Assembly: GCA_041660885.1 (NCBI GenBank)
Contig: JBAZVM010000004.1
Coordinates: forward strand, 22,423 to 86,422
Origin: Patescibacteria group bacterium
GTDB lineage: Bacteria > Patescibacteriota > Patescibacteriia > UBA9570 > JAHJKD01
DNA length: 64,000 nt
Reading direction: 5' to 3'
Below are positions 24,318 through 44,080 of the stretch, in pieces. Position 1 is the first letter of the stretch. Each line of letters starts with the position of its first letter. Below the pieces are notes generated by a model. The model searched no databases, was not told where the DNA came from, and saw only the letters and a program-made list of their open reading frames with translations. The position numbers and the translations under genes were made by a program.

Positions 24318-24360
24318 AATGGCAAAATGCGCGCCATATTTTTTTATTATTGGTAAGGCT

Positions 24361-24411
24361 GAGAAAGGGCAGCGAAGCATTTGTGTTTTGCTCCGCCGCC
24401 CTCTCTCTTCC
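24361..24411 (-). other. long imperfect 3' stem-loop after GC-rich ORF A
   Basis: GAGAAAGGGCAGCGAAGCA-TTTGTGTTT-TGCTCCGCCGCCCTCTCTC lies directly downstream of the stop at 24413. There is no U-tract. Confidence 0.5.
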
Positions 24412-24412
24412 C

Positions 24413-24853
24413 CTACTTCCTTAGCCAGATCTCCCCTTCGATAAATCGGGGGGAGCCCGACTGGACCCACGTAACCTTGTACGTAGTTTCGCAATCAAGG
24501 GGTCGAGACCCCAAGATCCGAATCCACAGTACAAGGGTGCCGGGATCAGCGGGAAGCCAGGTGTATTTTTCAACAACCTGTTCTTCTTCGCCAACCCACA
24601 CTCGTGGGTTAAAAAAGTAGGGCGCCAACCCAAACATGACAACCATCTTATGGCCCCAATCGCTGAGGGGCAGGTTGATTGTCAGGGTTGACGTTTCCCC
24701 GTTCCATCTCGCCTGCTCGACGCAAGCGAAGAGTGCATGGTGCAGAGCGCGAAGCTCTCCACCAACACTCTCGCCCACGGAAGGCGGATGGTCAGGGGAA
24801 GCCTTATCATCCCGAGCCGAAGATCGGGAGGGGAAAGGTAGAGCTCTCCCCAT
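24413..24853 (-). CDS. GC-rich hypothetical protein A (up to 146 aa)
   Basis: Hand GC count is 38/60 for nt 24721-24780, against 22/60 for nt 25021-25080. The SD-like AGGGGGTG precedes the ATG at 24853. The C-terminal half looks protein-like (KYTWLPADPGTLVLWIRILGSRPLDCETTYKVTWV). All six frames are fairly open here, so coding is unproven. Confidence 0.45.
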   Translation of the reverse strand: MGRALPFPSRSSARDDKASPDHPPSVGESVGGELRALHHALFACVEQARWNGETSTLTINLPLSDWGHKMVVMFGLAPYFFNPRVWVGEEEQVVEKYTWLPADPGTLVLWIRILGSRPLDCETTYKVTWVQSGSPRFIEGEIWLRK

Positions 24854-25033
24854 TTGGCACCCCCTGTTTCGGGGTTGAATGCGGCGTAATTGCCGACCGC
24901 ATAATGTATAACATTATTTTGATTTTGTCAATAGATATATGGAGATTTATAGCGTTTTTATTGACTTTTTTGAAAAAATATGATAAACTTATAATAGTTC
25001 AAATAATTTTTTAATCATTAAATTACTAAAAAT

Positions 25034-25621
25034 ATGAAAGAACCAGGATTCAATCCAGGAACAATCCCTGGCCAAGACAAAGAATCATTAGTAAACGAAG
25101 TCCAGACCGGTAATAAATTAGACATATCCGGACGAGGCACGGGCGTGGAAGAACCAACCGATATTGGGATATCTACAGAAGAAGCCGAACAATTTGTTGA
25201 GCTGCAAAAACAAATAGGGCAAATAAATGAAGAACAAGCAGCTGCATATCAGGTAAAATTAGACTATCTGAAAAAAAATGCTTCTAAACCTATAGATATC
25301 CGACATTTGGAAGATATCGATAGAATTTATCGACAAGTCCAAACGGGAGTCGAGCAGGAAGATATAGATGAGGGTCCGATTGCTGGGCCACCCAGCGATG
25401 AAGTATCTTCTGATCCCTATACAGTACCCCATGGCGATTCAGATCCAGGCCCCATTGAAACACTCCCTGATGACAATGAACAAGTTCAGCGAATAAACGA
25501 AAATGAAATTAAAGGGTCTGATATTACCTATGGGGAGCAGGCAGAATTGAGTGCTTTAGCGGCAAAACAAAGAGAAGAATCACAAAAACTTAGAATTAAA
25601 AAAAAACAGCTAGACAACTAG
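25034..25621 (+). CDS. acidic, probably disordered hypothetical protein (195 aa)
   Basis: ORF with an E/D/Q/P-rich composition and a C-terminal basic tail KLRIKKKQLDN. No family recognised. Confidence 0.55.
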   Translation: MKEPGFNPGTIPGQDKESLVNEVQTGNKLDISGRGTGVEEPTDIGISTEEAEQFVELQKQIGQINEEQAAAYQVKLDYLKKNASKPIDIRHLEDIDRIYRQVQTGVEQEDIDEGPIAGPPSDEVSSDPYTVPHGDSDPGPIETLPDDNEQVQRINENEIKGSDITYGEQAELSALAAKQREESQKLRIKKKQLDN

Positions 25622-25696
25622 CTGAGCAAGAGGCAGACAGAAAATCTTGGCAATTAGACTAAAATCAGATATAGATGCTCGCAATTAATTACTTCT

Positions 25697-25724
25697 AAAC
25701 CCCGCCTCGGCGGGGTTTATTTGT
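25697..25724. terminator. terminator between convergent genes
   Basis: ACCCCGCC-TC-GGCGGGGT followed by TTATTTGTTT. It overlaps the stop codon of kinase 1. Confidence 0.75.
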
Positions 25725-27723
25725 TTGCCGGGGGTTGTTCACCTAATTCTGTTGAAGCTTCTTTCTTTTGTTGCATCTTTCTTAATTCTCTAGCTCTTTT
25801 CCTTGCAGGATCTAAAAATGATTTAATAATATGATTCAAACCACCGGCTACCTGCATAATATCCGGCCTTGCATGTTGGGGGCCTATCATACTCTGGAAT
25901 AATATCTTTAATTGTCTTTTTGCCTCTGCTTCTTCTTTGGCGTCTTCTGTTTCTTGAGTATTTATTTCTATCTCTCCGGTGTTTTCAAGTACAGTATTAT
26001 GGCTCACCACCCACTCTGCATCTTCAGTATTATCAGGATCTAAAGTTATCGCTCCTCGGTTATGAAAGTCATCCAAGCCGAAAAACATGGCATACAAAGT
26101 AACTCCCAAAGAATAAATATCTTGTTTTTTATTATCGATTGCTTCCTGCGGCCTTAACTGTTTTTCAAACGGTAAAAATTTATTTATTTTTTCAGGAGAA
26201 GCATACCTTGGAGTAAAAGCTGCGCTTTCACTATCACTTTCACTTAAAGCATGCCCTTGCATCAATTCGGACGTATTAAAATCAAAAAAAGTAACTGCTA
26301 TTTGCGGATTTTCTAATCCGGGATATTTTCTCGCCGGATCAACCATAATATTTGCAGGTTTAATATCTAAATGAGCGAACCCCCGCTGGTGTATCCTAGC
26401 CAGCGCTATGGAGATTTTCCGCGCTATCAATAATTTTTGACTCAACTTTCTGGGAGTTTTTTCTCGCATTATACCAAACAAACTTTTAATCTTATCTTCT
26501 TCTCTCCTGTTTTCATTTTCGGCGACTATATTCTCCATTAATTCAAAAACTTGCGTAAATTTCGGCTTACCTTCTTGATTCTGAACAACCTGCGAGCCAT
26601 AAGTAAGGGGCATGGCTCTATCCGCGCTGCGCGTCTGCCCTTTTTTAGCCATAAAATAATCTTTTAAAACCTGCGGGTGCACTTTATGTTCGTATTCTCT
26701 GATTACTAAAGATAAAAGTTGTTCATCCTGCGCTTCCGCGGCTTTATCAAGATATCGCAAAATAATCGTATCCAACGGTTGGCCCACTTCTTTTATTCTA
26801 TCTTCGGTTCTTTTGAGTATTGCTTGTCTTTCTGTATCATGAGGCGCATAATTTTCCAATAACGTTCCCTGGCTTAGTATATCTTGGATAAATATTTCCT
26901 GATAAGTGCCAGCGATTATTGTTTTATTTCTATCAGAATCTCCTTCAGCGCTCGTAATCTTTAAAGCGTATTGGTTTCCTTCCGCATCACTAACCGCCCA
27001 CACTTCGGCTATTCCACCTTTACCAATGGGTTCAAGCAGTGTTATCTTTTTCCCCTGAACGATAAGAGATAAATTAGGTTCCGGAACATATGGTTGCTCC
27101 CGATGTTCACTACTGGATTCTTTTCGCCTGACAAACTGTTCAAAAGTTTTTTTTGGCGATACAATATTCCTTTCTTTTTCCCTGGCGGTCCTTTCCACAT
27201 AAAAACTGCTTGGCGGCGGAACAAAGCCCGTTGGTTCTTCGTCTCTTTGCGCTATTCTTTGCTGCAAATCAATCACATTGCCCTTCAGTTCTTCTTCCGC
27301 AGCCAATCTTTCGATGTTTCGATCGAGCGAGCGAATCTCTGTCGGCTCTCCTGTTTCAGTTTCAGCAGGAAGTATCTGAGTATCCAGTTCTTCGTTCGTA
27401 ATTTCTTTTCGCGCTATTCTTTCCTGCAAATCAATCACATTGTCTCGCGCTTTATCCGGCGCAACTTCTTCTGCTTGTTCCGGTTTTGTTTCGTTTAATA
27501 TTTCTTCTTCTTCTTTTTCTACAAGTCTAAAAAATTCCAATAATCTTCTTACCCCAAATTTTTTGGCTATTTGCCAGGCTTTTTCTTTTATCCCCGCCCA
27601 TCTTTCGTTTATTTCCAATCTTTCTTGTTCAGATATTGGTTGTTTACTCTCTTCAATTTCAACATCTTCAGCCTGAACTCTTCGCCCATTTCGTTTTCGT
27701 TCTACATCTGGATGAATTGCCAT
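25717..27723 (-). CDS. Hanks-type Ser/Thr protein kinase 1 (non-RD, large N-lobe insert)
   Basis: G-loop IGKGGIAEVW, YALKI (beta3 Lys), hinge ELMEN, catalytic loop HLDIKPAN, DFN in place of DFG, FTPRYASPE and DIYSLGVTLY. Confidence 0.85.
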   Translation of the reverse strand: MAIHPDVERKRNGRRVQAEDVEIEESKQPISEQERLEINERWAGIKEKAWQIAKKFGVRRLLEFFRLVEKEEEEILNETKPEQAEEVAPDKARDNVIDLQERIARKEITNEELDTQILPAETETGEPTEIRSLDRNIERLAAEEELKGNVIDLQQRIAQRDEEPTGFVPPPSSFYVERTAREKERNIVSPKKTFEQFVRRKESSSEHREQPYVPEPNLSLIVQGKKITLLEPIGKGGIAEVWAVSDAEGNQYALKITSAEGDSDRNKTIIAGTYQEIFIQDILSQGTLLENYAPHDTERQAILKRTEDRIKEVGQPLDTIILRYLDKAAEAQDEQLLSLVIREYEHKVHPQVLKDYFMAKKGQTRSADRAMPLTYGSQVVQNQEGKPKFTQVFELMENIVAENENRREEDKIKSLFGIMREKTPRKLSQKLLIARKISIALARIHQRGFAHLDIKPANIMVDPARKYPGLENPQIAVTFFDFNTSELMQGHALSESDSESAAFTPRYASPEKINKFLPFEKQLRPQEAIDNKKQDIYSLGVTLYAMFFGLDDFHNRGAITLDPDNTEDAEWVVSHNTVLENTGEIEINTQETEDAKEEAEAKRQLKILFQSMIGPQHARPDIMQVAGGLNHIIKSFLDPARKRARELRKMQQKKEASTELGEQPPANK

Positions 27724-27740
27724 AATATTTATTGTTTTAT

Positions 27741-29966
27741 TTATTGTTCTTGGGCTCTTTGTCTTCTTGCTTCTTCACTTTGTTGTTGTGACTCTTGTCT
27801 TTTTCGGGATTCTTCATTTTGTGCTTCTCTTGCAGCTATTTGTTCAGATCTATAAGGTGCATAAATAGCATAAAATTCGCGAGCTACATCGTCGATATTC
27901 GGACGCGATTCTACCGGACCGATCATTCTGGCAATTAAAACGGCTATTTTTCCTTCTGGTGACGATGGATCAACTTCCAATGCTTTCGGCTCACATTTTC
28001 TTTTTAATATTGAACCATGTTCAACTATATATTTTTTTACTTGTTCAATTGAAACTTGCGCTATTTTCGAATCAGTTCCTTTTCTTTGTTCTTGAGGCTT
28101 CTTTCCACTGCTATCGTAGAGATTATCACTACCGAAAAAAAGTCTGTACATTGTTATTCCTAAAGAATAAATATCGCGCTTTAAAAAGTCATCCTCACTT
28201 ATGTCTTTTTTAGCATCTTGGGCAAGAGCTTCCGGCGGCATATATCGGAAAGTACCGGTATTATAGTTTCGATCCTCCGGCAATAATAATTGGAATGTTT
28301 CGGCAAGGCCGGTATCTAATATCCTGGCATCCATGTTCTTTGGGTCAACCATCACATTAGCCGGTTTGATGTCGCGATGAGCAATGTGCCGCTGATGGAT
28401 TCTTCTTAAACCTAGCATCATTCCCATAGTTGCTCGCAGTCTCTGTTCTAAATTCAAATGATCTTCTATCTCTTCCAAATTCTGTATTTTTTCATTTTTC
28501 TCTCTATCCTTATTTTCCGCTGATACGTTTTCCATAAGCATAGCTATCTGAGTAACTCTCACTTCTGTTCCTAGTGTATATGATTTTAGCTGCTCTTTTA
28601 TTGCATTTATTATTTCCTTGCTATATAAAACCTTTTTAATCGGATCTTTTTCTTTATCTGCTTCGATAACTCCGGATGCTACTTTGCTAGACAGATCATT
28701 TATACTATTTAAATAATCACGAAAAACTTCTTTTGTTAAACTGCGCGGATTAATGCCTTCTCTGCTTAATGCTTTATATACTTGAGTGGCGACCGTTTTA
28801 GCTATAATAGCATCATTTTTCTCTGAACTGCGCGATTCCGTTACTCGCTGAATACCGGTTAATTCATCATAATAATCCCAAACAAAATTAATACCTTCAT
28901 TGGAAACAGCGTTAATATCCGATTTGATTATCTGGCTTTCATGAGCTTCTGGCACTCCTGTTACTTTTCTAGTTCTTCCGCTTTCAGCATCAGCATATCG
29001 ACGCACTAAAACTCTCGTATGAGGGTATTTTGCTTCGTGCGCTTGTAAAATTCTTTCTTTTTCCGTTTCATCTTCGCATTCTAACAATTTCAAAACCGTG
29101 CTTTCTGTGTCTGCTAAAGCTTTTTCGGAATATTCCGGATGGCTCTCGGCTATCTTTTCTCTTAAACTGCTGATTATCCCTCTTCGTTCTGTTTCATTAA
29201 AAATTTGGCCGCTAGATAAATAACTATTAATCATAGATTCGCGGCCTACTCTTACATATTCGCTTCTTCTGCGTAAATCTTCCTCTAGATTGCCTTTAAA
29301 CTCAACTAATTTTACGGCAAAAATTTGGCCAGATTTATCTCTGACTGAAAAGACGCTCCCAAAGCCGCCGCTTCCCAACAGACCAATTACTTCATAATTA
29401 TTACCGGCTATGGCAATACTTGATCCCGGTTCCATTATTACAGGGCCAGCATCCTCTCCTCTGATTTCTTTATGCGACTCTAAATTACGCATGTAATCTT
29501 GCAGAGGTTTTTCTATTCTTTCGCTACTTAATCTTATTTCTGAACTAGTATCCGTATACTGATCTTGTTTTGTTATTTCTTCGGCGTTTGGTTCATTGTC
29601 TGCCGCTTCTATTTCTCTTACAGTTGTCTCTAAATCTTCATCGGTTTCCTCTTCATTTAAACCGCCTGGCAGCACTTGTAAATCCGGCTGATCTGGCGCT
29701 TGTGCATCTTCGAGTACTTTATCTTCTGCTTGTTCTACTTTGAGCACTTCATCTTCTGCTTGTTCTACCAGACCGAAAAACTCCATTAATTTATTATACC
29801 CTAAAGCAGCAATTTTTCTTGCTTTCTCCATGATGCGCGCCCAGCGCTTATTTACTTCTTTTTTTTCTTGCTCGGAAATTGGCTGGCCCGCTTCTTCAAT
29901 TACAACACCTTCAGCAGGTACCCTGGGGCGAGCTGATTGTCTTTTTAAATCTGGATTTTGAGGCAT
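27741..29966 (-). CDS. Hanks-type Ser/Thr protein kinase 2 (very large N-lobe insert)
   Basis: G-loop LGSGGFGSVF, FAVKL, hinge MLMEN, HRDIKPAN, DTG in place of DFG, GTFRYMPPE and DIYSLGITMY. Confidence 0.9.
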   Translation of the reverse strand: MPQNPDLKRQSARPRVPAEGVVIEEAGQPISEQEKKEVNKRWARIMEKARKIAALGYNKLMEFFGLVEQAEDEVLKVEQAEDKVLEDAQAPDQPDLQVLPGGLNEEETDEDLETTVREIEAADNEPNAEEITKQDQYTDTSSEIRLSSERIEKPLQDYMRNLESHKEIRGEDAGPVIMEPGSSIAIAGNNYEVIGLLGSGGFGSVFSVRDKSGQIFAVKLVEFKGNLEEDLRRRSEYVRVGRESMINSYLSSGQIFNETERRGIISSLREKIAESHPEYSEKALADTESTVLKLLECEDETEKERILQAHEAKYPHTRVLVRRYADAESGRTRKVTGVPEAHESQIIKSDINAVSNEGINFVWDYYDELTGIQRVTESRSSEKNDAIIAKTVATQVYKALSREGINPRSLTKEVFRDYLNSINDLSSKVASGVIEADKEKDPIKKVLYSKEIINAIKEQLKSYTLGTEVRVTQIAMLMENVSAENKDREKNEKIQNLEEIEDHLNLEQRLRATMGMMLGLRRIHQRHIAHRDIKPANVMVDPKNMDARILDTGLAETFQLLLPEDRNYNTGTFRYMPPEALAQDAKKDISEDDFLKRDIYSLGITMYRLFFGSDNLYDSSGKKPQEQRKGTDSKIAQVSIEQVKKYIVEHGSILKRKCEPKALEVDPSSPEGKIAVLIARMIGPVESRPNIDDVAREFYAIYAPYRSEQIAAREAQNEESRKRQESQQQSEEARRQRAQEQ

Positions 29967-30044
29967 ATTGATTTTCTATAATTTTTTTTATTTTAACATT
30001 TTTTTTCTTAAAAAACAATAATATTGAAGATGATAATTTATGGA

Positions 30045-30118
30045 AGGCGGGAGAGAGAGGTGCCAACCCAGACTTTCGTCTACGACGCTTGCGCGCCGTC
30101 TCTCTCCTTAAGCCGCCC
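30045..30118 (-). other. long imperfect 3' stem-loop after GC-rich ORF B
   Basis: GGCGGGAGAGAGAGG (30047-30061) pairs with CCGTCTCTCTCC..GCCGCC (30096-30118). It overlaps the ORF B stop and lies between ORF B and the start of kinase 2. Confidence 0.5.
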
Positions 30119-30584
30119 TGAACGGGACGGGTCCGCAGTTTTCCCCGAGGGGAACCTTCCCGCTCGCGCGGAAATATTGCGAACCTGCCCACTGCAGAGT
30201 GAAACTCCTCTCGGCGTCAGAGCCCGTTTCCACGGAGGAAAAGATCGGCTCTGCAGAGCAGAAACCGAACCCAATCCATCCATCAACGGACTCGAGGATC
30301 TGTATGTTTTCCTCGCGGAATTCATAAGACCCTAACCGACCAATCAGATCTGGGAACGCAACAGACCGAACGTCCCTGACCCAAATGATCAGACAATAAG
30401 CCGAGAAAAACTCGATTTCCACCCTTGGGAGGGCTTCCTTCGAGCTGGAGTCTTCACCCCGAGCCCTTTCTTCGCTGGCGCTTGCCCAACGCTCAGCGAG
30501 AAAAACCACATTGCTGTGGCAGGGCTCCGCGGGGGCGGCCTTCTTTTCCTTCCGGCTCCGAAGGAGCCAATCGAACCAACACAT
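30108..30584 (-). CDS. GC-rich hypothetical protein B (158 aa)
   Basis: Strong SD: GGAGGGAG, then CC, then ATG (30594-30582). Hand GC count is 40/60 for nt 30481-30540. The sequence looks protein-like (VEIEFFSAYCLIIWVRDVRSVAFPDLIGRLGSYEF), whereas the other frames give R/P/S-rich junk. Confidence 0.5.
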   Translation of the reverse strand: MCWFDWLLRSRKEKKAAPAEPCHSNVVFLAERWASASEERARGEDSSSKEALPRVEIEFFSAYCLIIWVRDVRSVAFPDLIGRLGSYEFREENIQILESVDGWIGFGFCSAEPIFSSVETGSDAERSFTLQWAGSQYFRASGKVPLGENCGPVPFRAA

Positions 30585-30602
30585 GGCTCCCTCCAGGAGT
30601 TA

Positions 30603-30655
30603 GAAAAAATTGAAAACCAACCCCCTCGCGGGGGCGATTGACCCGTGTGGGCCAA
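30603..30655 (-). promoter_or_regulatory. leader with two hairpins, the second terminator-like (candidate attenuator)
   Basis: Minus-strand RNA: TTGGCCC-ACAC-GGGTCAA, then GCCCCC-GCGA-GGGGGT, followed by TGGTTTTCAATTTTTTC about 10 nt before the SD of ORF B. Confidence 0.45.
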
Positions 30656-30767
30656 CGAATGACCCTAACACATTAGTTTTAAAAAGTCAAGCTAATTATA
30701 TAGAATATCCCCTATTTTATTGATTTTTTAGCAATTTTATGCGAGAATTATATTGAATTTAAATAAT

Positions 30768-32294
30768 ATGCCTCAAGAAAGACAATTAGATAAAAAATTA
30801 TTAAGTGAAAAACATGTTAAACCGGAAGATTTAGATATTACAGAAGCTACAGATGATGAAATAGCACCTAAAGAAGAAGCCGGTAAAGTTCTTGAATTTA
30901 GGCGTGCGGCTGAAAGGGCAGAAGCGGAAGCGGCGCATCAAGCCGATGCTTTAAGCGCGGAAATTTCGCAAAGCATGGAAGTGCCCGGAGAGCCCTGGCT
31001 TGATCAATATCAAGATCCTCATCTTAGAAGATACGCCCATGAAAAATATACTCGGCTGATGCAACAGATTGCGGAATTAAAGCCGAAGCACGATAGCAAA
31101 GGTTTTTTACGCCGCCTATGGGAACGAACCACGGGAGCATACCAAGCCGAAGAAAGCCGGCTTGAGCAAATGAACCAAGCGCTGGCTGAGATATTAGAAG
31201 GAAGATTGGAAACATTAGTGAGAGCTGAGCAGAGCGGTCAAGCTAGATACACGAAAAAACAAGAAAGCACCGTAGATAGATTTGGACAACCGTTAGAAGC
31301 ATACGGGGAAGATGTCGTGTCTATAGATGAAATAGCCGGTACTGCTATTATTATTGATGGCATGTCTGGCATGAAAAAGGGAGGAATTGATAAATCTACT
31401 GCCGCTTTGATGGAAGCGGCTGGAACAAAACAAGAAATAACTGACGATTCATTGCCCATAGCAAAAGAAATCGCTTCGCGCTTAAACCGAGCTTTGCAAG
31501 AAATACCATCCGATATTTCAGGAGACCAAGCAGTGGCCGAATTAACGAAGAGCTTTAAAAATGTATTAAACAATATAGAGCTTGAAGTTACCGGTGGAGC
31601 CATGATTTTAGCTGTGAAATATTTGCCAGATACTGATGAATTATTAATCATAGATATTGGTAACTGCCAGTTAGCGCTTCAAGGCGTGGATAAATTTAGC
31701 GATATAAAATTAGACAGGGGTGGTATTTCTGCTTTCCAAACTTTTTACGACAAAAAAAATAAAAAAATTGGCATTTATGATAATAGACCGAATAATAAAA
31801 AAACTCCTTATATTTATTCTGTCCCTTTAGCGAATTTTAGAACTGACTCTAGCCAACCGATTACTTTATTTATGGGTTCAGACGGGTTGAATGAAACGAA
31901 TTCTCATATGACCCGAATACATGATTTAGAACAACAAGTGCAGCGTACTATAGAATTAATAGAAAAAGATGAGGCGCATATCACGGAGTTCCGAGAAAAA
32001 ATGAACGCCACTAACGACCCAAAAATAAGGGAGGGTATTTCCAAGCAAATAATGCGCAAGGAATTACGTTTAAGCGGCCGTCAAAAAACATTGGCCGTCC
32101 TACAAAGTAATTTAGAAGCTGGGGCCGGAAGAGAAAATCATTTTGGCAGTGCAAAAAACTTAACGGAATGTGCTCCTGTTTTACTAGAACGTGGCACAAG
32201 CGCTATTTCTGCTTTACCAAATACTGTGGATGATATATCTATAATACGCTTGGATATTCCGCCAAAAAAAGAAACGAGGGAATTAACTCATTAA
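30768..32294 (+). CDS. PP2C-family Ser/Thr phosphatase with ~190-aa N-terminal coiled-coil extension
   Basis: IIDGMSGMKKGG (DGMGG-like), LFMGSDGLNE (SDGL) and VDDISIIRLDI (DN/DI-T/S-vv) motifs. Start set at ATG 30768; the track uses TTG 30753. Confidence 0.8.
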   Translation: MPQERQLDKKLLSEKHVKPEDLDITEATDDEIAPKEEAGKVLEFRRAAERAEAEAAHQADALSAEISQSMEVPGEPWLDQYQDPHLRRYAHEKYTRLMQQIAELKPKHDSKGFLRRLWERTTGAYQAEESRLEQMNQALAEILEGRLETLVRAEQSGQARYTKKQESTVDRFGQPLEAYGEDVVSIDEIAGTAIIIDGMSGMKKGGIDKSTAALMEAAGTKQEITDDSLPIAKEIASRLNRALQEIPSDISGDQAVAELTKSFKNVLNNIELEVTGGAMILAVKYLPDTDELLIIDIGNCQLALQGVDKFSDIKLDRGGISAFQTFYDKKNKKIGIYDNRPNNKKTPYIYSVPLANFRTDSSQPITLFMGSDGLNETNSHMTRIHDLEQQVQRTIELIEKDEAHITEFREKMNATNDPKIREGISKQIMRKELRLSGRQKTLAVLQSNLEAGAGRENHFGSAKNLTECAPVLLERGTSAISALPNTVDDISIIRLDIPPKKETRELTH

Positions 32295-32374: not shown

Positions 32375-32941
32375 ATGGACAATAAAAATATAGATTGGGA
32401 CGACATATATAGAGACCCGCAAATACGCGCCGTGGCGCAAAGCCGCTATGCCGAGCTTAATAAAGAACGCGAAGATTTAGGCGCGCAGATGAAAGAAATA
32501 GAAGAAGAGATGAGAACCTGGCAAAAAGCCTGGAAAAATATTTTAGAGCGCCGGCTGATTATGGAACAAAAAATTCGCGCCAAAGATAAAATGATTCGCC
32601 ATGTTTTTCCCGTACAGCCGCCAGCCATAACAACCAACCAGCAACCAGTCATAAAAAATCAACAACTATTTTCCAACACGGAAAAATTTATCGTAAAAAA
32701 CGAACAAAAAAAAACCGTCAGCCAGCAGCCGATAGCTCCTAGCCAACCTTCCGCTAATGTAAATTTAAAGCCCGTTCCCAAAGTAGGAAGCAACACCGCG
32801 TTGGATGAATTAAAAGCCGCCAAGCTGGAAGAAGCCAGTTTAAGGCAAAGCCCCACGGCCACGGCCTTGGATATTGCCACGCTTCAAGAAAAAATTAAAT
32901 CTCTCACACAAAAATTAAACACGCAGACTTCTACGGTGTAG
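32375..32941 (+). CDS. hypothetical protein (188 aa) sharing an N-terminal motif with the PP2C
   Basis: WDDIYRDPQIRAVAQSRYAEL compares with WLDQYQDPHLRRYAHEKYTRL in the phosphatase. Q/P/T-rich C-terminal half. Confidence 0.6.
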   Translation: MDNKNIDWDDIYRDPQIRAVAQSRYAELNKEREDLGAQMKEIEEEMRTWQKAWKNILERRLIMEQKIRAKDKMIRHVFPVQPPAITTNQQPVIKNQQLFSNTEKFIVKNEQKKTVSQQPIAPSQPSANVNLKPVPKVGSNTALDELKAAKLEEASLRQSPTATALDIATLQEKIKSLTQKLNTQTSTV

Positions 32942-38024: not shown

Positions 38025-38096
38025 CGCGGGGTAGAGCAGTGGCAGCTCGGCTGGCTCATAACCAGCAGGTCGGTGGTTCGACTCCACCCCCCGCAA
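38025..38096 (+). tRNA. initiator tRNA-fMet (anticodon CAT)
   Basis: The 5' end is CGCGGGG and the 3' end CCCCGCA-A, giving the C1xA72 mismatch typical of bacterial initiators. Anticodon loop CTCATAA, T-arm GGTGG-TTCGACT-CCACC. No CCA encoded. Confidence 0.9.
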
Positions 38097-38101
38097 CATT
38101 C

Positions 38102-38128
38102 AAAAATCCCGCCATGGCGGGATTTTTT
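38102..38128 (+). terminator. tRNA terminator
   Basis: ATCCCGCC-AT-GGCGGGAT followed by TTTTT. Confidence 0.8.
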
Positions 38129-38157
38129 AACTTAATTATTTAAACGAATAATTTTTT

Positions 38158-38198
38158 GGCGGCGGGAACTGAGTGTGATGTGTCACTCTCCCGCGCCC
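38158..38198 (-). other. 3' stem-loop after GC-rich ORF 38202..38483
   Basis: GGCGGCGGGAACTGAGTG-TGATGTGT-CACTCTCCCGCGCCC (imperfect), directly after the TAG stop. Confidence 0.5.
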
Positions 38199-38201
38199 TC
38201 C

Positions 38202-38483
38202 CTACTTCTTCCTCCTCCTCTTCCACGCGATCTCAACCCTCTGGAGGGTCAAGAGGAGCCCTCCGAGCTCGGTGTCCCTTTCATCTCGTCTGTCGATCAG
38301 ATGTTGATAGATTTCCGTCCAGTTGAAGTTCCCGAACTGATCCTTGCCCGGGAGGAACTCCGGATCGATCTGTCCGACAGCGGCATAGGCCGCGTCGAAC
38401 AGCTCCTCCAGTTCGGGCAGCGCCAGCCGCGCAATTACACTAGACTCGATGCCAATAATCTGTGGGATCGTGAACGCCATCAT
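38202..38483 (-). CDS. GC-rich small hypothetical protein (93 aa)
   Basis: SD-like AAAGGGGTGAT precedes ATGATG (38483). Hand GC count is 39/60 for nt 38341-38400. Sequence MMAFTIPQIIGIESS...WKRRRKK. No family recognised. Confidence 0.55.
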   Translation of the reverse strand: MMAFTIPQIIGIESSVIARLALPELEELFDAAYAAVGQIDPEFLPGKDQFGNFNWTEIYQHLIDRRDERDTELGGLLLTLQRVEIAWKRRRKK

Positions 38484-38590
38484 ATCACCCCTTTGGTTAG
38501 ATGGTTGATAAAATATAACCATAATAATAAAAATGCCGCAAGTTTATAATTGCGGACATTCATATTAAAAGTAATAAATTTTGAACTGCT

Positions 38591-38624
38591 GCCGGGATCG
38601 TAGTTGTGATGCTACTTACCCGGC
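38591..38624 (-). other. 3' stem-loop after GC-rich ORF 38639..38836
   Basis: GCCGGGATCGTAG-TTGTGATG-CTACTTACCCGGC. The loop shares TGTGATG with the 38158-38198 hairpin. Confidence 0.5.
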
Positions 38625-38638
38625 TCCCCCTTGATGTT

Positions 38639-38836
38639 CTACCCCTCGTACCACTCGGACTCACTGTATGGGACAAGGCTGGCACTCATGCCGAGATGGT
38701 CGACAAGCTCCCTTTTTTCCCTCGCAGTCATGTCGCGCCACTCCTCCAGACCGCCAGCCATTTCCTCGAGATACTCCTGGTCTATGAGATCATCGGCGAC
38801 CAGTTCCTCGTCCGAGTAATTTCTCGTTCTTTGCAC
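38639..38836 (-). CDS. GC-rich small acidic hypothetical protein (65 aa)
   Basis: GGAGGTGA, then GCC, then GTG start (38847-38834). Acidic sequence ending PYSESEWYEG. Confidence 0.55.
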   Translation of the reverse strand: MQRTRNYSDEELVADDLIDQEYLEEMAGGLEEWRDMTAREKRELVDHLGMSASLVPYSESEWYEG

Positions 38837-38900
38837 GGCTCACCTCCTATTGTATGGAGCGCCGCGGGTATAAACTACTATTTATATGCAATCTGGTCAA

Positions 38901-38930
38901 CTGTAGACGCGATTAATCGCGTCTCTACAG
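38901..38930. promoter_or_regulatory. 13-bp-arm palindrome in divergent intergenic region (candidate operator)
   Basis: CTGTAGACGCGAT-TA-ATCGCGTCT(CT)ACAG. The right arm lies about 16 nt upstream of the TAGAAT at 38947-38952, where a -35 would sit. Confidence 0.45.
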
Positions 38931-38958
38931 AAATCATAATTTATTGTAGAATATATAC

Positions 38959-43222: not shown

Positions 43223-43240
43223 TTTTTATTAAACTTTCTT

Positions 43241-43272
43241 AAAACCCCGTTTAAAAAGCGGGGTTTTATTTT
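43241..43272 (+). terminator. groEL terminator
   Basis: CCCCGTTT-AAA-AAGCGGGG followed by TTTTATTTTT. Confidence 0.75.
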
Positions 43273-43274
43273 TA

Positions 43275-43715
43275 TTGTTTTTTTGGTATAATACAGAAGT
43301 GATAAAACAGGAAACTAAAATCAATTACTATGTTAATCTGCTTTGGTGGCCTATTTTATTGGCTTTAGTGTTTGAGGTGGCTTCCTTATTTACCGCCAAC
43401 GCTGATTCATTGATACTGGCGGCCGATATTATCCTGATATTTTACTTGCTCGTTAAAACAAAAGTATCCGATTACAAACTGGCGATTTGGCTGAACGGTT
43501 TAATTATATTCTTTATCGCCTTGGCCGTGGCTATTGTGGAATTTTTAATAAATTTAAAATTCTATAATCTGTTTAATATAATTGTCGAGCCGATTATCTA
43601 CGGATCCGGAGCCGCGTTAATGAGTAGCTGTTTAATTTTGATATTAAATAAATTTAAATTACGCCCCCTAGCCGGTGGCGTCAAGAAAGGAGGTGAAGAA
43701 CATGGCCGAAAATAA
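43275..43715 (+). CDS. small polytopic membrane protein
   Basis: Four hydrophobic segments. The true start may be GTG 43299, 6 nt after an extended -10 box TGGTATAAT (43284-43292). Confidence 0.6.
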   Translation: MFFWYNTEVIKQETKINYYVNLLWWPILLALVFEVASLFTANADSLILAADIILIFYLLVKTKVSDYKLAIWLNGLIIFFIALAVAIVEFLINLKFYNLFNIIVEPIIYGSGAALMSSCLILILNKFKLRPLAGGVKKGGEEHGRK

Positions 43716-44022
43716 AGTAGAAGAAAAATTTGATGCGAAAGATGTGGAAGAAAACAAAGCGATTGCTTGTTTAAGCTACATCGGTATCTTATTTTTAATT
43801 CCGTTGCTCGCGAAAAAAGAATCTAAATTTTGCCAAGCCAACGCTAAACAAGGCATGGCTCTATTCATATGCGAGGTGATATTAGCTATTATCCCTTACT
43901 TAGGTTGGTTAGCAGAATTGGCTTTAATCGTGGTAGCTATCATCTGCATTATCAATACCCTTCAGGGCAAATTATGGCAGATTCCGGGATTATATAATCT
44001 ATCCAAAAAGTGGAATTTTTAA
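43702..44022 (+). CDS. small membrane protein (DUF4870-like pattern)
   Basis: AAAGGAGGTGA SD before ATG 43702. KAIACLSYIGILFLIPLL followed by a second TM segment. Confidence 0.6.
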   Translation: MAENKVEEKFDAKDVEENKAIACLSYIGILFLIPLLAKKESKFCQANAKQGMALFICEVILAIIPYLGWLAELALIVVAIICIINTLQGKLWQIPGLYNLSKKWNF

Positions 44023-44038
44023 AAACACGGATATATAA

Positions 44039-44068
44039 CAAAAACCCCGCCGATGGCGGGGTTTTTTA
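44039..44068. terminator. bidirectional terminator
   Basis: A-run, CCCCGCC-GAT-GGCGGGG, then a T-run, between the convergent membrane-protein gene and recA. Confidence 0.8.
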
Positions 44069-44080
44069 TTTGTGTGTGAG

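What the first reader, a model, noticed from the sequence alone, without database searches (positions are those of the whole stretch)
25717..29966. Hanks-type kinases with 100-200 aa inserted between the beta3 lysine and the hinge, and non-canonical DFG/HRD motifs
- Kinase 1: the G-loop is at about aa 233-241, the Lys in YALKI at about aa 255, the hinge ELMEN at about aa 394 and HLD at aa 451-453. Lys to catalytic Asp is therefore about 198 aa.
- Kinase 2: the Lys in FAVKL is at about aa 219 and HRD at aa 530-531, so Lys to Asp is about 312 aa.
- In canonical kinases this distance is about 90-100 aa (PKA K72 to D166). The alphaC/beta4 region is therefore replaced or expanded by roughly 100 and 200 extra residues.
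- Kinase 1 is a non-RD kinase (HLD) with DFN in place of DFG. Kinase 2 has DTG in place of DFG.
- Both have long acidic, repeat-containing N-terminal regions and basic Q/E/R-rich C-terminal tails.
Basis: partly seen in the sequence, partly recalled or inferred. Interest (0 to 1): 0.6.

Follow-up and report, generated by a model that had tools for sequence, protein, structure and literature searches.

The report
Patescibacterial kinases with N-lobe helical insert
Two neighbouring genes of an uncultured Patescibacteria (CPR) bacterium encode genuine Ser/Thr protein kinases of a small, previously undescribed family that carries a conserved helical module of about 85 residues inside the small lobe, an unusual but not unprecedented variation on a very well-known enzyme.

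Summary

- **Distance.** The beta3 Lys to catalytic Asp distance is 198 aa in K1 and 313 aa in K2. The median in 247 ordinary kinase domains is 94.
- **Lysine assignment.** It is not misassigned. Profile, PDB-sequence and fold evidence all place G-loop and Lys in a normal N-lobe.
- **First insert.** Helix alphaC and its Glu are retained. The extra residues lie between alphaC and beta4. In the K2 model they form four confidently predicted helices followed by a conserved 'PPxLVKxY..GxTRK' return segment.
- **Second insert.** K2 alone has a further ~115 aa inside the beta4-beta5 hairpin, modelled with low confidence.
- **Family.** An exhaustive search found seven more cluster representatives with the same architecture. 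All named ones are Patescibacteria or Kerfeldbacteria. Nothing turned up in the JGI metagenome or viral contigs.
- **Catalytic residues.** The catalytic Asp, Lys and Asn residues are invariant. HRD-His, DFG-Phe and DFG-Gly vary across the family, so HLD/DFN/DTG are family drift rather than loss of function.
- **Known analogues.** PINK1 Ins2/Ins3 and the eIF2alpha-kinase insert.

Verdict: a new variant of a known kind, of moderate interest. Function is inferred, not shown. Two extremely structure-prone GC-rich blocks flank the locus and remain unexplained.

The parts
27741..29966 (-). K2, a 741-aa Ser/Thr protein kinase (NCBI MFA6027713.1, 'protein kinase', Patescibacteria MAG)
   Evidence: ORF. 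Pfam Pkinase 93.9 bits. Name and accession. Model and fold match.
29412..29966 (-). K2 N-terminal acidic region, aa 1-185. The first ~75 aa are a module shared with K1 (53% identity), followed by the short repeat VEQAED(E/K)VL.
   Evidence: tblastn K1_N against K2. Repeat D4. 24.6% D+E. Low pLDDT.
29295..29402 (-). K2 N-lobe strands beta1-beta3, aa 189-224, with G-loop GSGGFG 198-203 and beta3 Lys K219
   Evidence: Pfam profile positions 1-42, E=5e-5. TNIK alignment. Model strands 20-55.
29211..29276 (-). K2 helix alphaC, aa 231-252, with the family-conserved Glu E243 ('RE' motif)
   Evidence: Model helix 62-83. Family alignment. Lys-to-Glu spacing of 24 residues.
28947..29210 (-). K2 insert 1 (alphaC to beta4), aa 253-340. 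It has four helices and ends in the conserved segment Y-P-x-x-x-L-V-x-x-Y..G-R-T-R-K.
   Evidence: Model helices 89-106, 108-127, 131-144 and 149-159, with 10-residue block means of pLDDT 81-95. Family conservation. A profile of the insert hits only family members.
28911..28946 (-). K2 strand beta4, aa 341-352
   Evidence: Model strand 172-183.
28566..28910 (-). K2 insert 2 (inside the beta4-beta5 hairpin), aa 353-467. It is predicted helical but with low confidence. An insert at the same position is present only in the syntenic orthologue P0013.
   Evidence: pLDDT 38-54. Alignment. Weak similarity to the P0013 insert, with 2 of 500 shuffles reaching the score.
28527..28565 (-). K2 strand beta5 and hinge, aa 468-480 (TQIAMLMEN)
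   Evidence: Model strand 299-310. Family motif Q...LMEN...EN..R.
27867..28526 (-). K2 C-lobe, aa 481-700: HRD 530-532, K534, N537, DTG 551-553, PPE 577-579, D598, R688
   Evidence: Pfam 473-643. PDB alignments. Invariant columns.
27744..27866 (-). K2 C-terminal Q/E/R-rich helical tail, aa 701-741
   Evidence: Model helix 522-571. Composition.
25717..27723 (-). K1, a 668-aa paralogous kinase (NCBI MFA6027712.1, 'hypothetical protein WC752_02195')
   Evidence: ORF. Pfam Pkinase 70.6 bits. BLASTP against K2, E=1e-25 and 7e-24. Name.
27064..27723 (-). K1 N-terminal acidic region, aa 1-220, with the direct repeat NVIDLQ(E/Q)RIA (nt 27242-27280 and 27404-27442, 92% identical)
26944..27060 (-). K1 strands beta1-beta3, aa 222-260: G-loop GKGGIA 234-239 and Lys K255
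   Evidence: Alignment to K2. Weak Pfam hit, E=0.047.
26608..26934 (-). K1 alphaC (about aa 264-285, E276) and the alphaC-beta4 insert (aa 286-371). Boundaries are taken by alignment to K2.
   Evidence: Alignments.
26530..26607 (-). K1 beta4-turn-beta5-hinge, aa 372-398 (short hairpin, no second insert; ELMEN 394-398)
25804..26529 (-). K1 C-lobe, aa 399-640: HLD 451-453, K455, N458, DFN 481-483, SPE 509-511, D535, R619
   Evidence: Pfam 413-612..
25607..25624 (-). Terminator-like hairpin plus T-run downstream of K1, the probable end of the K2-K1 transcript
   Evidence: consensus scan only.

Best explanation
K2 and K1 are co-oriented genes 17 nt apart and probably co-transcribed. They are paralogous, soluble, probably catalytically competent Ser/Thr kinases of the eukaryotic-like (Hanks) fold. 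They belong to a small family so far seen only in Patescibacteria.

Shown or predicted here:
- The N-lobe is canonical: beta1-3, Lys, alphaC with Glu, a beta4-beta5 hairpin and the hinge.
- After alphaC the chain leaves the lobe, forms a four-helix module of about 70 residues, and returns through a conserved segment ((Y)PPxLVKxY..GxTRK) to beta4.
- K2, and its syntenic orthologue in a related genome, carry a second insert of about 115 residues in the beta4-beta5 hairpin.
- The catalytic Asp, Lys and Asn, the Mg-binding Asp, the APE Glu, the alphaF Asp and the alphaH-I Arg are invariant across members that share only 25-33% identity.
- HRD-His, DFG-Phe and DFG-Gly vary across the family. K1 is a non-RD kinase.

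Inferred, not shown:
- By analogy with PINK1, the conserved return segment takes over the anchoring role of the normal alphaC-beta4 loop.
- The helical module packs beside alphaC as a built-in, cyclin-like support and/or a docking surface for substrate or partner.
- The beta4-beta5 insert contributes to substrate recognition, as PINK1 Ins3 does.

The substrates and the biological role are unknown. The gene evolves much faster than its housekeeping neighbours, which fits an interaction or arms-race role.
For: Kinase identity:
- Pfam 70.6 and 93.9 bits against a cutoff of 31.7.
- The N-lobe piece of K2 hits profile positions 1-42, E=5e-5.
- Two-segment alignment to TNIK.
- Foldseek TM-scores normalised to target of 0.72-0.76 against AAK1, STK40 and TGFBR2 over about 535 columns.

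Topology:
- AlphaFold2 model built on a 9-sequence family alignment: pLDDT 74, pTM 0.68.
- Helices at model residues 62-83 (alphaC), then 89-159 (10-residue block means of pLDDT 81-95).
- Strands at 172-183 and 299-310, enclosing a low-confidence stretch at 184-298.

Family:
- Exhaustive HMMER search of 1.84 billion representatives.
- Alignment.
- Lys-to-Asp distances of 197-200 in K1, P0010, P0011 and P0014, 313 in K2 and 446 in P0013, against a generic median of 94.
- Invariant catalytic columns.
- Taxonomy.

Fast evolution: in the syntenic locus L084, UvrA is 82%, UvrD 67% and UvrC 61% identical, but the kinase only about 31%.

PINK1 analogy: TcPINK1 Ins2 (221-253) follows the alphaC Glu217 and packs on alphaC like a cyclin. 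Its conserved distal loop is essential for activity. [quoted passage not shown]
Against: - No coordinates or PAE were available, so I could not check whether the helical module contacts alphaC or stands apart.
- The model rests on only 9 sequences, and a first model built on 2 sequences failed (pLDDT 43).
- K1 was not modelled. Its boundaries are taken by alignment.
- K2 has Thr in place of the DFG Phe, a regulatory-spine residue, and K1 has Asn in place of the DFG Gly. Either could reduce activity.
- The family has no conserved partner gene, sensor domain or substrate clue across loci.
- The PINK1 analogy is topological only. No specific sequence relationship was found.
Confidence: 0.7

Rival explanations
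1. One or both proteins are pseudokinases. K1 (HLD, DFN, imperfect G-loop) would be a non-catalytic regulatory partner or scaffold of K2, and the tandem pair would work as a kinase/pseudokinase heterodimer.
For: - K1 deviates at three motifs: G-x-G-G-x-A, HLD and DFN.
- Its N-lobe piece scores poorly against Pfam (E=0.047).
- The genes are 17 nt apart and share an N-terminal module that is 53% identical, better conserved than their catalytic domains at about 30%.
Against: - K1 keeps every residue needed for chemistry: K255, E276, D453, K455, N458 and D481, plus SPE, D535 and R619.
- Non-RD kinases and DFG variants can be active. Family members also show DLG, DFS and MRD variants.
Confidence: 0.2
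2. The extra residues are merely tolerated, largely disordered spacer loops with no function of their own, like the ~130-aa unstructured kinase insert of HRI.
For: - K2 insert 2 (aa 353-467) has pLDDT 38-54 and is absent from K1 and most relatives.
- The HRI insert is large and disordered (PMC13181343).
- Insert lengths vary widely in the family: P0096 and P0013 carry further expansions.
Against: - Insert 1 is predicted as four helices with 10-residue block means of pLDDT 81-95.
- It carries motifs conserved at 25-33% overall identity: the Gly of 'GEI' is invariant, and PPxLVKxY and GxTRK are conserved.
- Its length is nearly constant at 80-83 aa in six of the seven aligned members.
Confidence: 0.15
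3. The kinases are components of an anti-phage defence system or are phage-derived, as suggested by hits to MAD6, PD-T4-6 and MkoA kinase models.
For: - PADLOC mad6 gives 74-107 bits and PD-T4-6 up to 81 bits.
- NCBIfam antiphage_MADS6 gives 55.9-65.1 bits.
- PHROG 2361 'serine-threonine kinase' gives 61-89 bits.
Against: - All hits cover only the generic C-lobe and lie far below the family cutoffs (56-65 bits against 460 for MADS6).
- No methyltransferase, nuclease, STAND or other defence partner lies nearby.
- No relatives were found in viral contigs.
- The loci sit among housekeeping genes.
Confidence: 0.05

Closest known systems
PINK1 (Ins2 and Ins3 insertions of the kinase N-lobe)
   Same: - The insertions are at the same two topological positions. 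One directly follows the alphaC Glu and precedes beta4 (TcPINK1 Ins2, residues 221-253). One lies between beta4 and beta5 (Ins3, 260-288).
- In PINK1 the proximal part of Ins2 is poorly conserved, while a distal loop just before beta4 is highly conserved and essential (PMC5679756). The same conservation pattern is seen here: a variable set of helices followed by conserved PPxLVKxY..GxTRK.
   Different: - There is no detectable specific sequence relationship. PINK1 is not among the best 60 PDB sequence hits or the best 50 fold hits.
- The inserts here are about 2.5-4 times longer: about 85 aa with four helices against 33 aa with one strand and one helix, and about 115 aa against 29 aa.
- These proteins are bacterial and cytoplasmic. 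They lack the PINK1 C-terminal extension and Ins1.
- The function is untested.
eIF2alpha kinases (HRI, PERK, GCN2, PKR) with a 'kinase insert' in the N-lobe
   Same: A large insert of 100 aa or more splits the kinase domain between the N-lobe strands and the hinge. HRI has a ~130-140-aa insert at about residues 240-370 (PMC13181343). Its position between beta4 and beta5 is stated from general knowledge of the family. K2 insert 2 is at that position and, like the HRI insert, is modelled with low confidence.
   Different: - The HRI insert is disordered. The family-wide insert here lies at a different site (alphaC-beta4) and is predicted to fold.
- There is no eIF2alpha-kinase-specific sequence signal. 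PKR is only one of about a thousand generic PDB hits.
Ordinary bacterial Hanks-type Ser/Thr kinases (PknB/Stk1-like)
   Same: Same fold, the same catalytic residues and the Ser/Thr-type catalytic loop HRDxKxxN. NCBIfam PknB_PASTA_kin aligns to the C-lobe.
   Different: - The scores are far below the family cutoff (45-55 bits against 450).
- There is no transmembrane segment and there are no PASTA or other sensor domains.
- The N-lobe carries the inserts, and the proteins have long acidic N-terminal regions.

Membership tests
Eukaryotic-like (Hanks-type) protein kinase, Pfam PF00069 | Whole-protein score above Pfam's gathering threshold | tested here: met
   K1 scores 70.6 bits and K2 93.9 bits against a cutoff of 31.7.
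Eukaryotic-like (Hanks-type) protein kinase, Pfam PF00069 | Gly-rich loop, followed by the beta3 Lys (A-x-K) and the alphaC Glu | tested here: met
   K2 has GSGGFG 198-203, K219 and E243. K1 has GKGGIA 234-239 (third Gly replaced by Ala), K255 and E276. K2 189-231 aligns to profile positions 1-42, E=5e-5. The Glu is assigned from the family alignment and the model helix.
Eukaryotic-like (Hanks-type) protein kinase, Pfam PF00069 | Catalytic loop (H/Y)RDxKxxN and Mg-binding DFG Asp | tested here: met
   K2 has HRDIKPAN 530-537 and D551 (DTG). K1 has HLDIKPAN 451-458 and D481 (DFN). The Asp, Lys and Asn are invariant in the 9-member alignment, while HRD-His/Arg, DFG-Phe and DFG-Gly vary.
Eukaryotic-like (Hanks-type) protein kinase, Pfam PF00069 | Bilobal kinase fold | tested here: met
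   The K2 model (pLDDT 74) matches AAK1, STK40, GAK and TGFBR2 with TM-scores normalised to target of 0.61-0.76 and E about 1e-9. K1 was not modelled.
Eukaryotic-like (Hanks-type) protein kinase, Pfam PF00069 | Phosphotransfer activity | not testable with these tools
   This needs a recombinant protein assay.
PINK1 family | Specific sequence similarity to PINK1, including the C-terminal extension packed on the C-lobe | tested here: not met
   PINK1 is absent from the best 60 PDB sequence hits and the best 50 fold hits. The C-terminal tail here is a single charged helix.
PINK1 family | N-lobe insertions after alphaC and between beta4 and beta5 | tested here: met
   The topology is the same (compared with PMC5679756). 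This is a resemblance in design, not evidence of membership.
MADS anti-phage kinase MAD6 (NF047741) and PD-T4-6 | Score at or above the curated cutoff, and a defence-gene neighbourhood | tested here: not met
   The scores are 55.9 and 65.1 bits against a cutoff of 460. The PADLOC hits cover only the C-lobe. The neighbours are uvrD, uvrC, uvrA and unknown ORFs.
PknB/Stk1 PASTA kinases (NF033483) | Score at or above the cutoff; transmembrane segment plus PASTA repeats | tested here: not met
   The scores are 45 and 55 bits against a cutoff of 450, and there are no PASTA hits.

The most novel reading that the evidence does not exclude
The four-helix alphaC-beta4 module may be a previously undescribed, autonomously folded regulatory or docking domain. 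In that reading it defines a Patescibacteria-specific kinase subfamily that evolves rapidly because it acts on, or is regulated by, components of the host-episymbiont interaction. In this genome its expression may also be coupled to the extraordinarily structured GC-rich RNA lying directly upstream of K2 (30020-30670, minus strand).
Probability: 0.12. Interest if true: 0.7.

Novelty: new variant of a known kind. Interest (0 to 1): 0.4.

Why it matters
The alphaC-beta4 loop is one of the most length-constrained parts of the kinase fold. It is the only N-lobe element tethered to the C-lobe. A family that threads a folded helical module of about 85 residues through this point while keeping all catalytic residues shows how much the N-lobe can tolerate. 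It also gives a bacterial, probably easily expressed, counterpart to the PINK1 type of built-in alphaC support.

For Patescibacteria biology, the family is a lineage-restricted, fast-diverging signalling enzyme with no sensor domain and no known substrate. That makes it a candidate for studies of how these reduced episymbionts regulate themselves or their hosts. It does not overturn anything known about kinases.

Tried and rejected
**Searches and models that gave little**
- The first AlphaFold2 run used only K1 and K2 as the alignment. It gave pLDDT 43 and was unusable.
- Word-indexed homologue searches with K2, K1 and a family profile returned almost only the queries themselves and generic TPR-kinases. 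Only the exhaustive search found the family.
- The search for related loci failed on a 9-sequence alignment.
- Two metagenome-contig scans and one viral-contig scan found no relatives.

**Insert sequences searched alone**
- Pfam and the PDB gave nothing significant. The best results were PDB E=0.058 and Pfam E=0.014, all unrelated helical proteins.

**Defence-system membership.** Rejected: the scores are far below the cutoffs and the context is wrong.

**PP2C idea for the neighbouring 508/513-aa ORF**
- The idea came from motifs seen by eye ('IIDGMSGMKKGG', 'GSDGL', 'VDDIS').
- Pfam does not support it, even with the coiled-coil stretch removed, and neither does the PDB.

**Small ORFs in the GC-rich blocks.** Protein-level homology among them was not significant.

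**Literature.** Searches found no description of this family.

Full report
**What is there.** The interval holds two ORFs on the minus strand, 17 nt apart: K2 (27741-29966, 741 aa) and K1 (25717-27723, 668 aa). In public records they are MFA6027713.1 'protein kinase' and MFA6027712.1 'hypothetical protein WC752_02195', from a Patescibacteria group MAG on a 105-kb contig.

The window is ordinary Patescibacteria chromosome. It carries RNase J, PNPase, an SBP_bac_5 protein, UvrD, UvrC, UvrA, GroEL and tRNAs.

**Check of the observation.**
- K1: G-loop 233-241, K255, ELMEN 394-398, HLD 451-453, DFN 481-483.
- K2: GSGGFG 198-203, K219, LMEN 477-480, HRD 530-532, DTG 551-553.

The Lys-to-Asp distance is 198 residues in K1 and 313 in K2. 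In 247 kinase domains taken from the same search output the median is 94, with an interquartile range of 94-98. The acidic, repeat-bearing N-terminal regions are real. K1's tail is basic, and K2's is mixed-charge.

**Is the Lys misassigned?** No.
- Pfam Pkinase matches the C-lobes strongly (K1 413-612, K2 473-643; 70.6 and 93.9 bits against a cutoff of 31.7).
- The isolated K2 stretch 189-263 matches profile positions 1-42, which cover the G-loop and beta3 (E=5e-5).
- phmmer against the PDB aligns K2 189-236 to TNIK 15-63 and K2 516-618 to TNIK 129-227. So 66 TNIK residues correspond to 280 K2 residues.
- K1 aligns with K2 across this region (E=7e-24).

**A family.** Word-indexed searches found essentially only the two proteins themselves.

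The exhaustive HMMER search of 1.84 billion cluster representatives found seven more with the same architecture: P0010, P0011, P0013, P0014, P0026, P0035 and P0096 (sequences). All the named ones are 'Patescibacteria group bacterium' or 'Candidatus Kerfeldbacteria', and their clusters hold 1-3 members each.

Their alignment shows these conserved blocks:
- the G-loop;
- A-x-K;
- 'RE..I.R.LS.GEI';
- '(Y)PP.LVK.Y..A..G.TRK';
- 'P..Y..Q.V';
- 'Q...LMEN...EN..R';
- 'IH.RGIAHRDIKPAN.MVDP';
- 'DFGLS';
- 'GTP.YMSPE';
- 'DIYSLG'.

Lys-to-Asp is 197-200 in four members, 313 in K2 and 446 in P0013. A profile of the insert alone recognises only family members among the 168 proteins held. It has no significant match in Pfam or the PDB. 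No relatives were found in JGI metagenome contigs or viral contigs.

**Anatomy.** An AlphaFold2 model of K2 residues 170-741 on the 9-sequence alignment reached pLDDT 74 and pTM 0.68. An earlier 2-sequence run failed. In K2 numbering:

| Element | K2 residues | Note |
|---|---|---|
| beta1-beta3 | 189-224 | |
| alphaC | 231-252 | Contains E243, 24 residues after K219 |
| Four further helices | 258-275, 277-296, 300-313, 318-328 | 10-residue block means of pLDDT 81-95 |
| GRTRK loop | 330-334 | |
| beta4 | 341-352 | |
| Helical stretch | 353-467 | pLDDT 38-54 |
| beta5 and hinge | 468-480 | |
| C-lobe | from 481 | Normal |

Foldseek against the PDB gives whole-kinase-domain matches (AAK1, STK40, GAK, BIKE, TGFBR2). 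TM-scores normalised to the target reach 0.76 over about 535 alignment columns, so both lobes superpose and the inserts are gaps. TM-score normalised to the query never exceeds 0.41 in the PDB or 0.39 in the viral set. No known structure therefore covers the inserts.

The extra length thus has two sources:
- **A family-wide alphaC-to-beta4 insert.** It is 80-83 residues in six of the seven aligned members, and alphaC itself is retained.
- **A ~115-residue insert in the beta4-beta5 hairpin, in K2 only.** P0013 has an insert of similar length at the same position. The two are weakly similar in sequence (local score 52 against 30.3 +/- 5.5 in shuffles; 2 of 500 shuffles reach it).

K1's boundaries follow by alignment. 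K1 was not modelled.

**Catalytic competence.** Across nine sequences that share 25-33% identity, the following K2 positions are invariant:
- G253;
- H524 and R526;
- D532, K534, P535 and N537;
- D541;
- D551 (the DFG Asp);
- E579 (the APE Glu);
- D598;
- R688.

Both window proteins keep all the residues needed for chemistry. The HRDxKxxN form and the GT/FT-x-x-Y-x-x-PE P+1 region indicate Ser/Thr specificity (established knowledge). Activity itself is untested.

**Context and evolution.** The locus of P0013 (L084) is syntenic with the window. Its order is uvrA - uvrC - unknown ORFs - kinase - small ORFs - uvrD - secG - SBP_bac_5 - RNase J.

The flanking proteins are 60-82% identical to the window's (UvrA 82%, UvrD 67%, UvrC 61%). 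The kinases are only about 31% identical. The kinase island therefore diverges much faster than its surroundings, and the window carries a tandem duplication. K1 and K2 share an N-terminal ~75-aa module at 53% identity but are only about 30% identical in their catalytic domains.

Other family members sit in different housekeeping neighbourhoods:
- tyrS-kinase-uvrB in Kerfeldbacteria, and the same dnaA...tyrS-kinase order in L088, whose contig ends just past the kinase;
- between rpsG and fusA;
- among paralogous unknown and beta-helix proteins.

No partner gene, sensor domain, transmembrane segment or defence gene is conserved. The defence-kinase model hits (MAD6, PD-T4-6) are generic C-lobe matches far below their cutoffs.

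**Mechanism.** The anatomy above is shown or predicted. The rest is inferred.

In TcPINK1, Ins2 (221-253) follows the alphaC Glu217. Its helix packs on alphaC in the way cyclin packs on CDK, and its conserved distal loop anchors to the C-lobe and the DFG Phe and is essential. [quoted passage not shown]

The family here has the same two insertion sites and the same conservation pattern: variable helices followed by a conserved pre-beta4 segment. I therefore consider the following most likely:
- the GxTRK segment replaces the normal alphaC-beta4 anchor;
- the helices support alphaC and/or dock a partner;
- K2's second insert modulates substrate access.

HRI shows that insertions of about 130 residues in the kinase domain are tolerated but can be disordered (PMC13181343). 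That is the main rival reading for insert 2.

**Comparison and novelty.** These proteins are members of the ePK superfamily. They are not members of the PINK1, eIF2alpha-kinase, PknB-PASTA or MADS families. They are a new, lineage-restricted variant: a folded multi-helix alphaC-beta4 insert. No description was found in the searchable literature.

**Side observation.** Two GC-rich blocks (51-54% GC in a ~41% GC window) flank the locus on the kinase strand. Both fold far better than shuffled controls:
- 24330-24900(-): z = -14.7.
- 30020-30670(-): z = -8.1.

The plus strands give -7.8 and -5.3. Eleven control regions gave z between -5.1 and +1.5, and the non-GC-rich ones were almost all between -2.4 and +1.5.

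There is no Rfam match. NCBI's annotation has no protein there, while other pipelines- and 158-aa ORFs. Their nature is unresolved.

Noticed in passing
window 24330-24900 (minus strand): A GC-rich (51%) block between uvrD and the 195-aa ORF folds extraordinarily well as RNA on the minus strand: MFE -298.6 against -203.1 +/- 6.5 kcal/mol for shuffles, z = -14.7. The plus strand gives z = -7.8. The fold is several long imperfect hairpins of up to about 35 bp. On the minus strand a promoter-like site (24931-24903) precedes it and a terminator-like hairpin (24309-24292) follows it. There is no Rfam match even at E<=10. A 146-aa ORF (24413-24853) is called by some pipelines, but NCBI's annotation has no protein there. 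The block is absent from the syntenic locus L084.
   Followed up: partly
window 30020-30670 (minus strand): A second GC-rich (54%) block lies directly upstream of K2 on the same strand. It gives z = -8.1 on the minus strand and -5.3 on the plus strand. Promoter-like sites on the minus strand lie at 30776-30734. It could be a ~700-nt structured leader of the K2-K1 operon, an independent RNA, or the 158-aa ORF 30108-30584, which has no Pfam hit and has no protein in NCBI's annotation. There is no Rfam match and no sequence similarity to the first block.
   Followed up: partly
L082 7351-7951; L086 7301-7901 and 9351-9801; L087 3601-4151 and 5601-6101: In two other, unrelated family loci the kinase gene is also directly flanked by GC-rich blocks on its own strand. 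One block (L086 7282-7887) reads as a Cys-rich protein with a lipoprotein-type signal ('LFVAAC', judged by eye). A short leader hairpin CCCC(C)-loop-GGGG(G)T before the start codon recurs in W_up, W_dn and L082_up. These blocks fold only modestly better than shuffles (z -1.1 to -4.9), and the encoded peptides are not significantly similar to each other.
   Followed up: partly
window 38100-38950 and 43223-44080: Two further ORF-poor intergenic stretches have elevated folding scores. Block 38100-38950 (GC-rich, next to tRNA 38025-38096) gives z about -5 on both strands, and by eye it carries two small GC-rich minus-strand ORFs with Shine-Dalgarno-like sites. Block 43223-44080 (36% GC overall) gives z = -5.0 on the plus strand only.
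   Followed up: partly
window 30768-32294 (plus strand; 508 aa from the ATG, 513 aa from the TTG at 30753): This unknown protein is transcribed divergently from K2. By eye it shows PP2C-like motifs (IIDGMSGMKKGG, IDIGNCQ, GSDGL, VDDIS), which would make a kinase/phosphatase pair. Pfam, NCBIfam and PDB sequence searches give no support, even with the coiled-coil stretch removed. Its first codons (MPQERQL) resemble K2's (MPQNPDL), which produces the inverted repeat 29936-29969 / 30765-30798.
   Followed up: partly
window 32375-32941 (plus strand, 188 aa); L084 5120-6061: The N-terminal ~70 aa of this coiled-coil protein are conserved (32% identity, E=1.5e-11) in a 313-aa Pro/Ala-rich protein at the same position of the syntenic island. 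A short related motif (Y-x-DP-x-[LI]-R) also occurs in the 508-aa neighbour (tblastn E=0.034). This is the only accessory gene of the island conserved between the two genomes.
   Followed up: partly
L086 6115-12126; L087 2391-8402: In the P0160/P0035 lineage the kinase and three small unknown ORFs lie between rpsG (S7) and fusA (EF-G). These two genes are normally adjacent in the str operon, which suggests that the kinase cassette was inserted there.
   Followed up: no
L082 16784-17734: The P0010 locus ends with a gene that has weak or faint hits to T4SS coupling-protein domains (TrwB_AAD_bind, T4SS-DNA_transf). It is surrounded by several paralogous 540-560-aa unknown proteins and by NosD/beta-helix proteins. 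This looks like a variable surface or secretion region near a family kinase.
   Followed up: no
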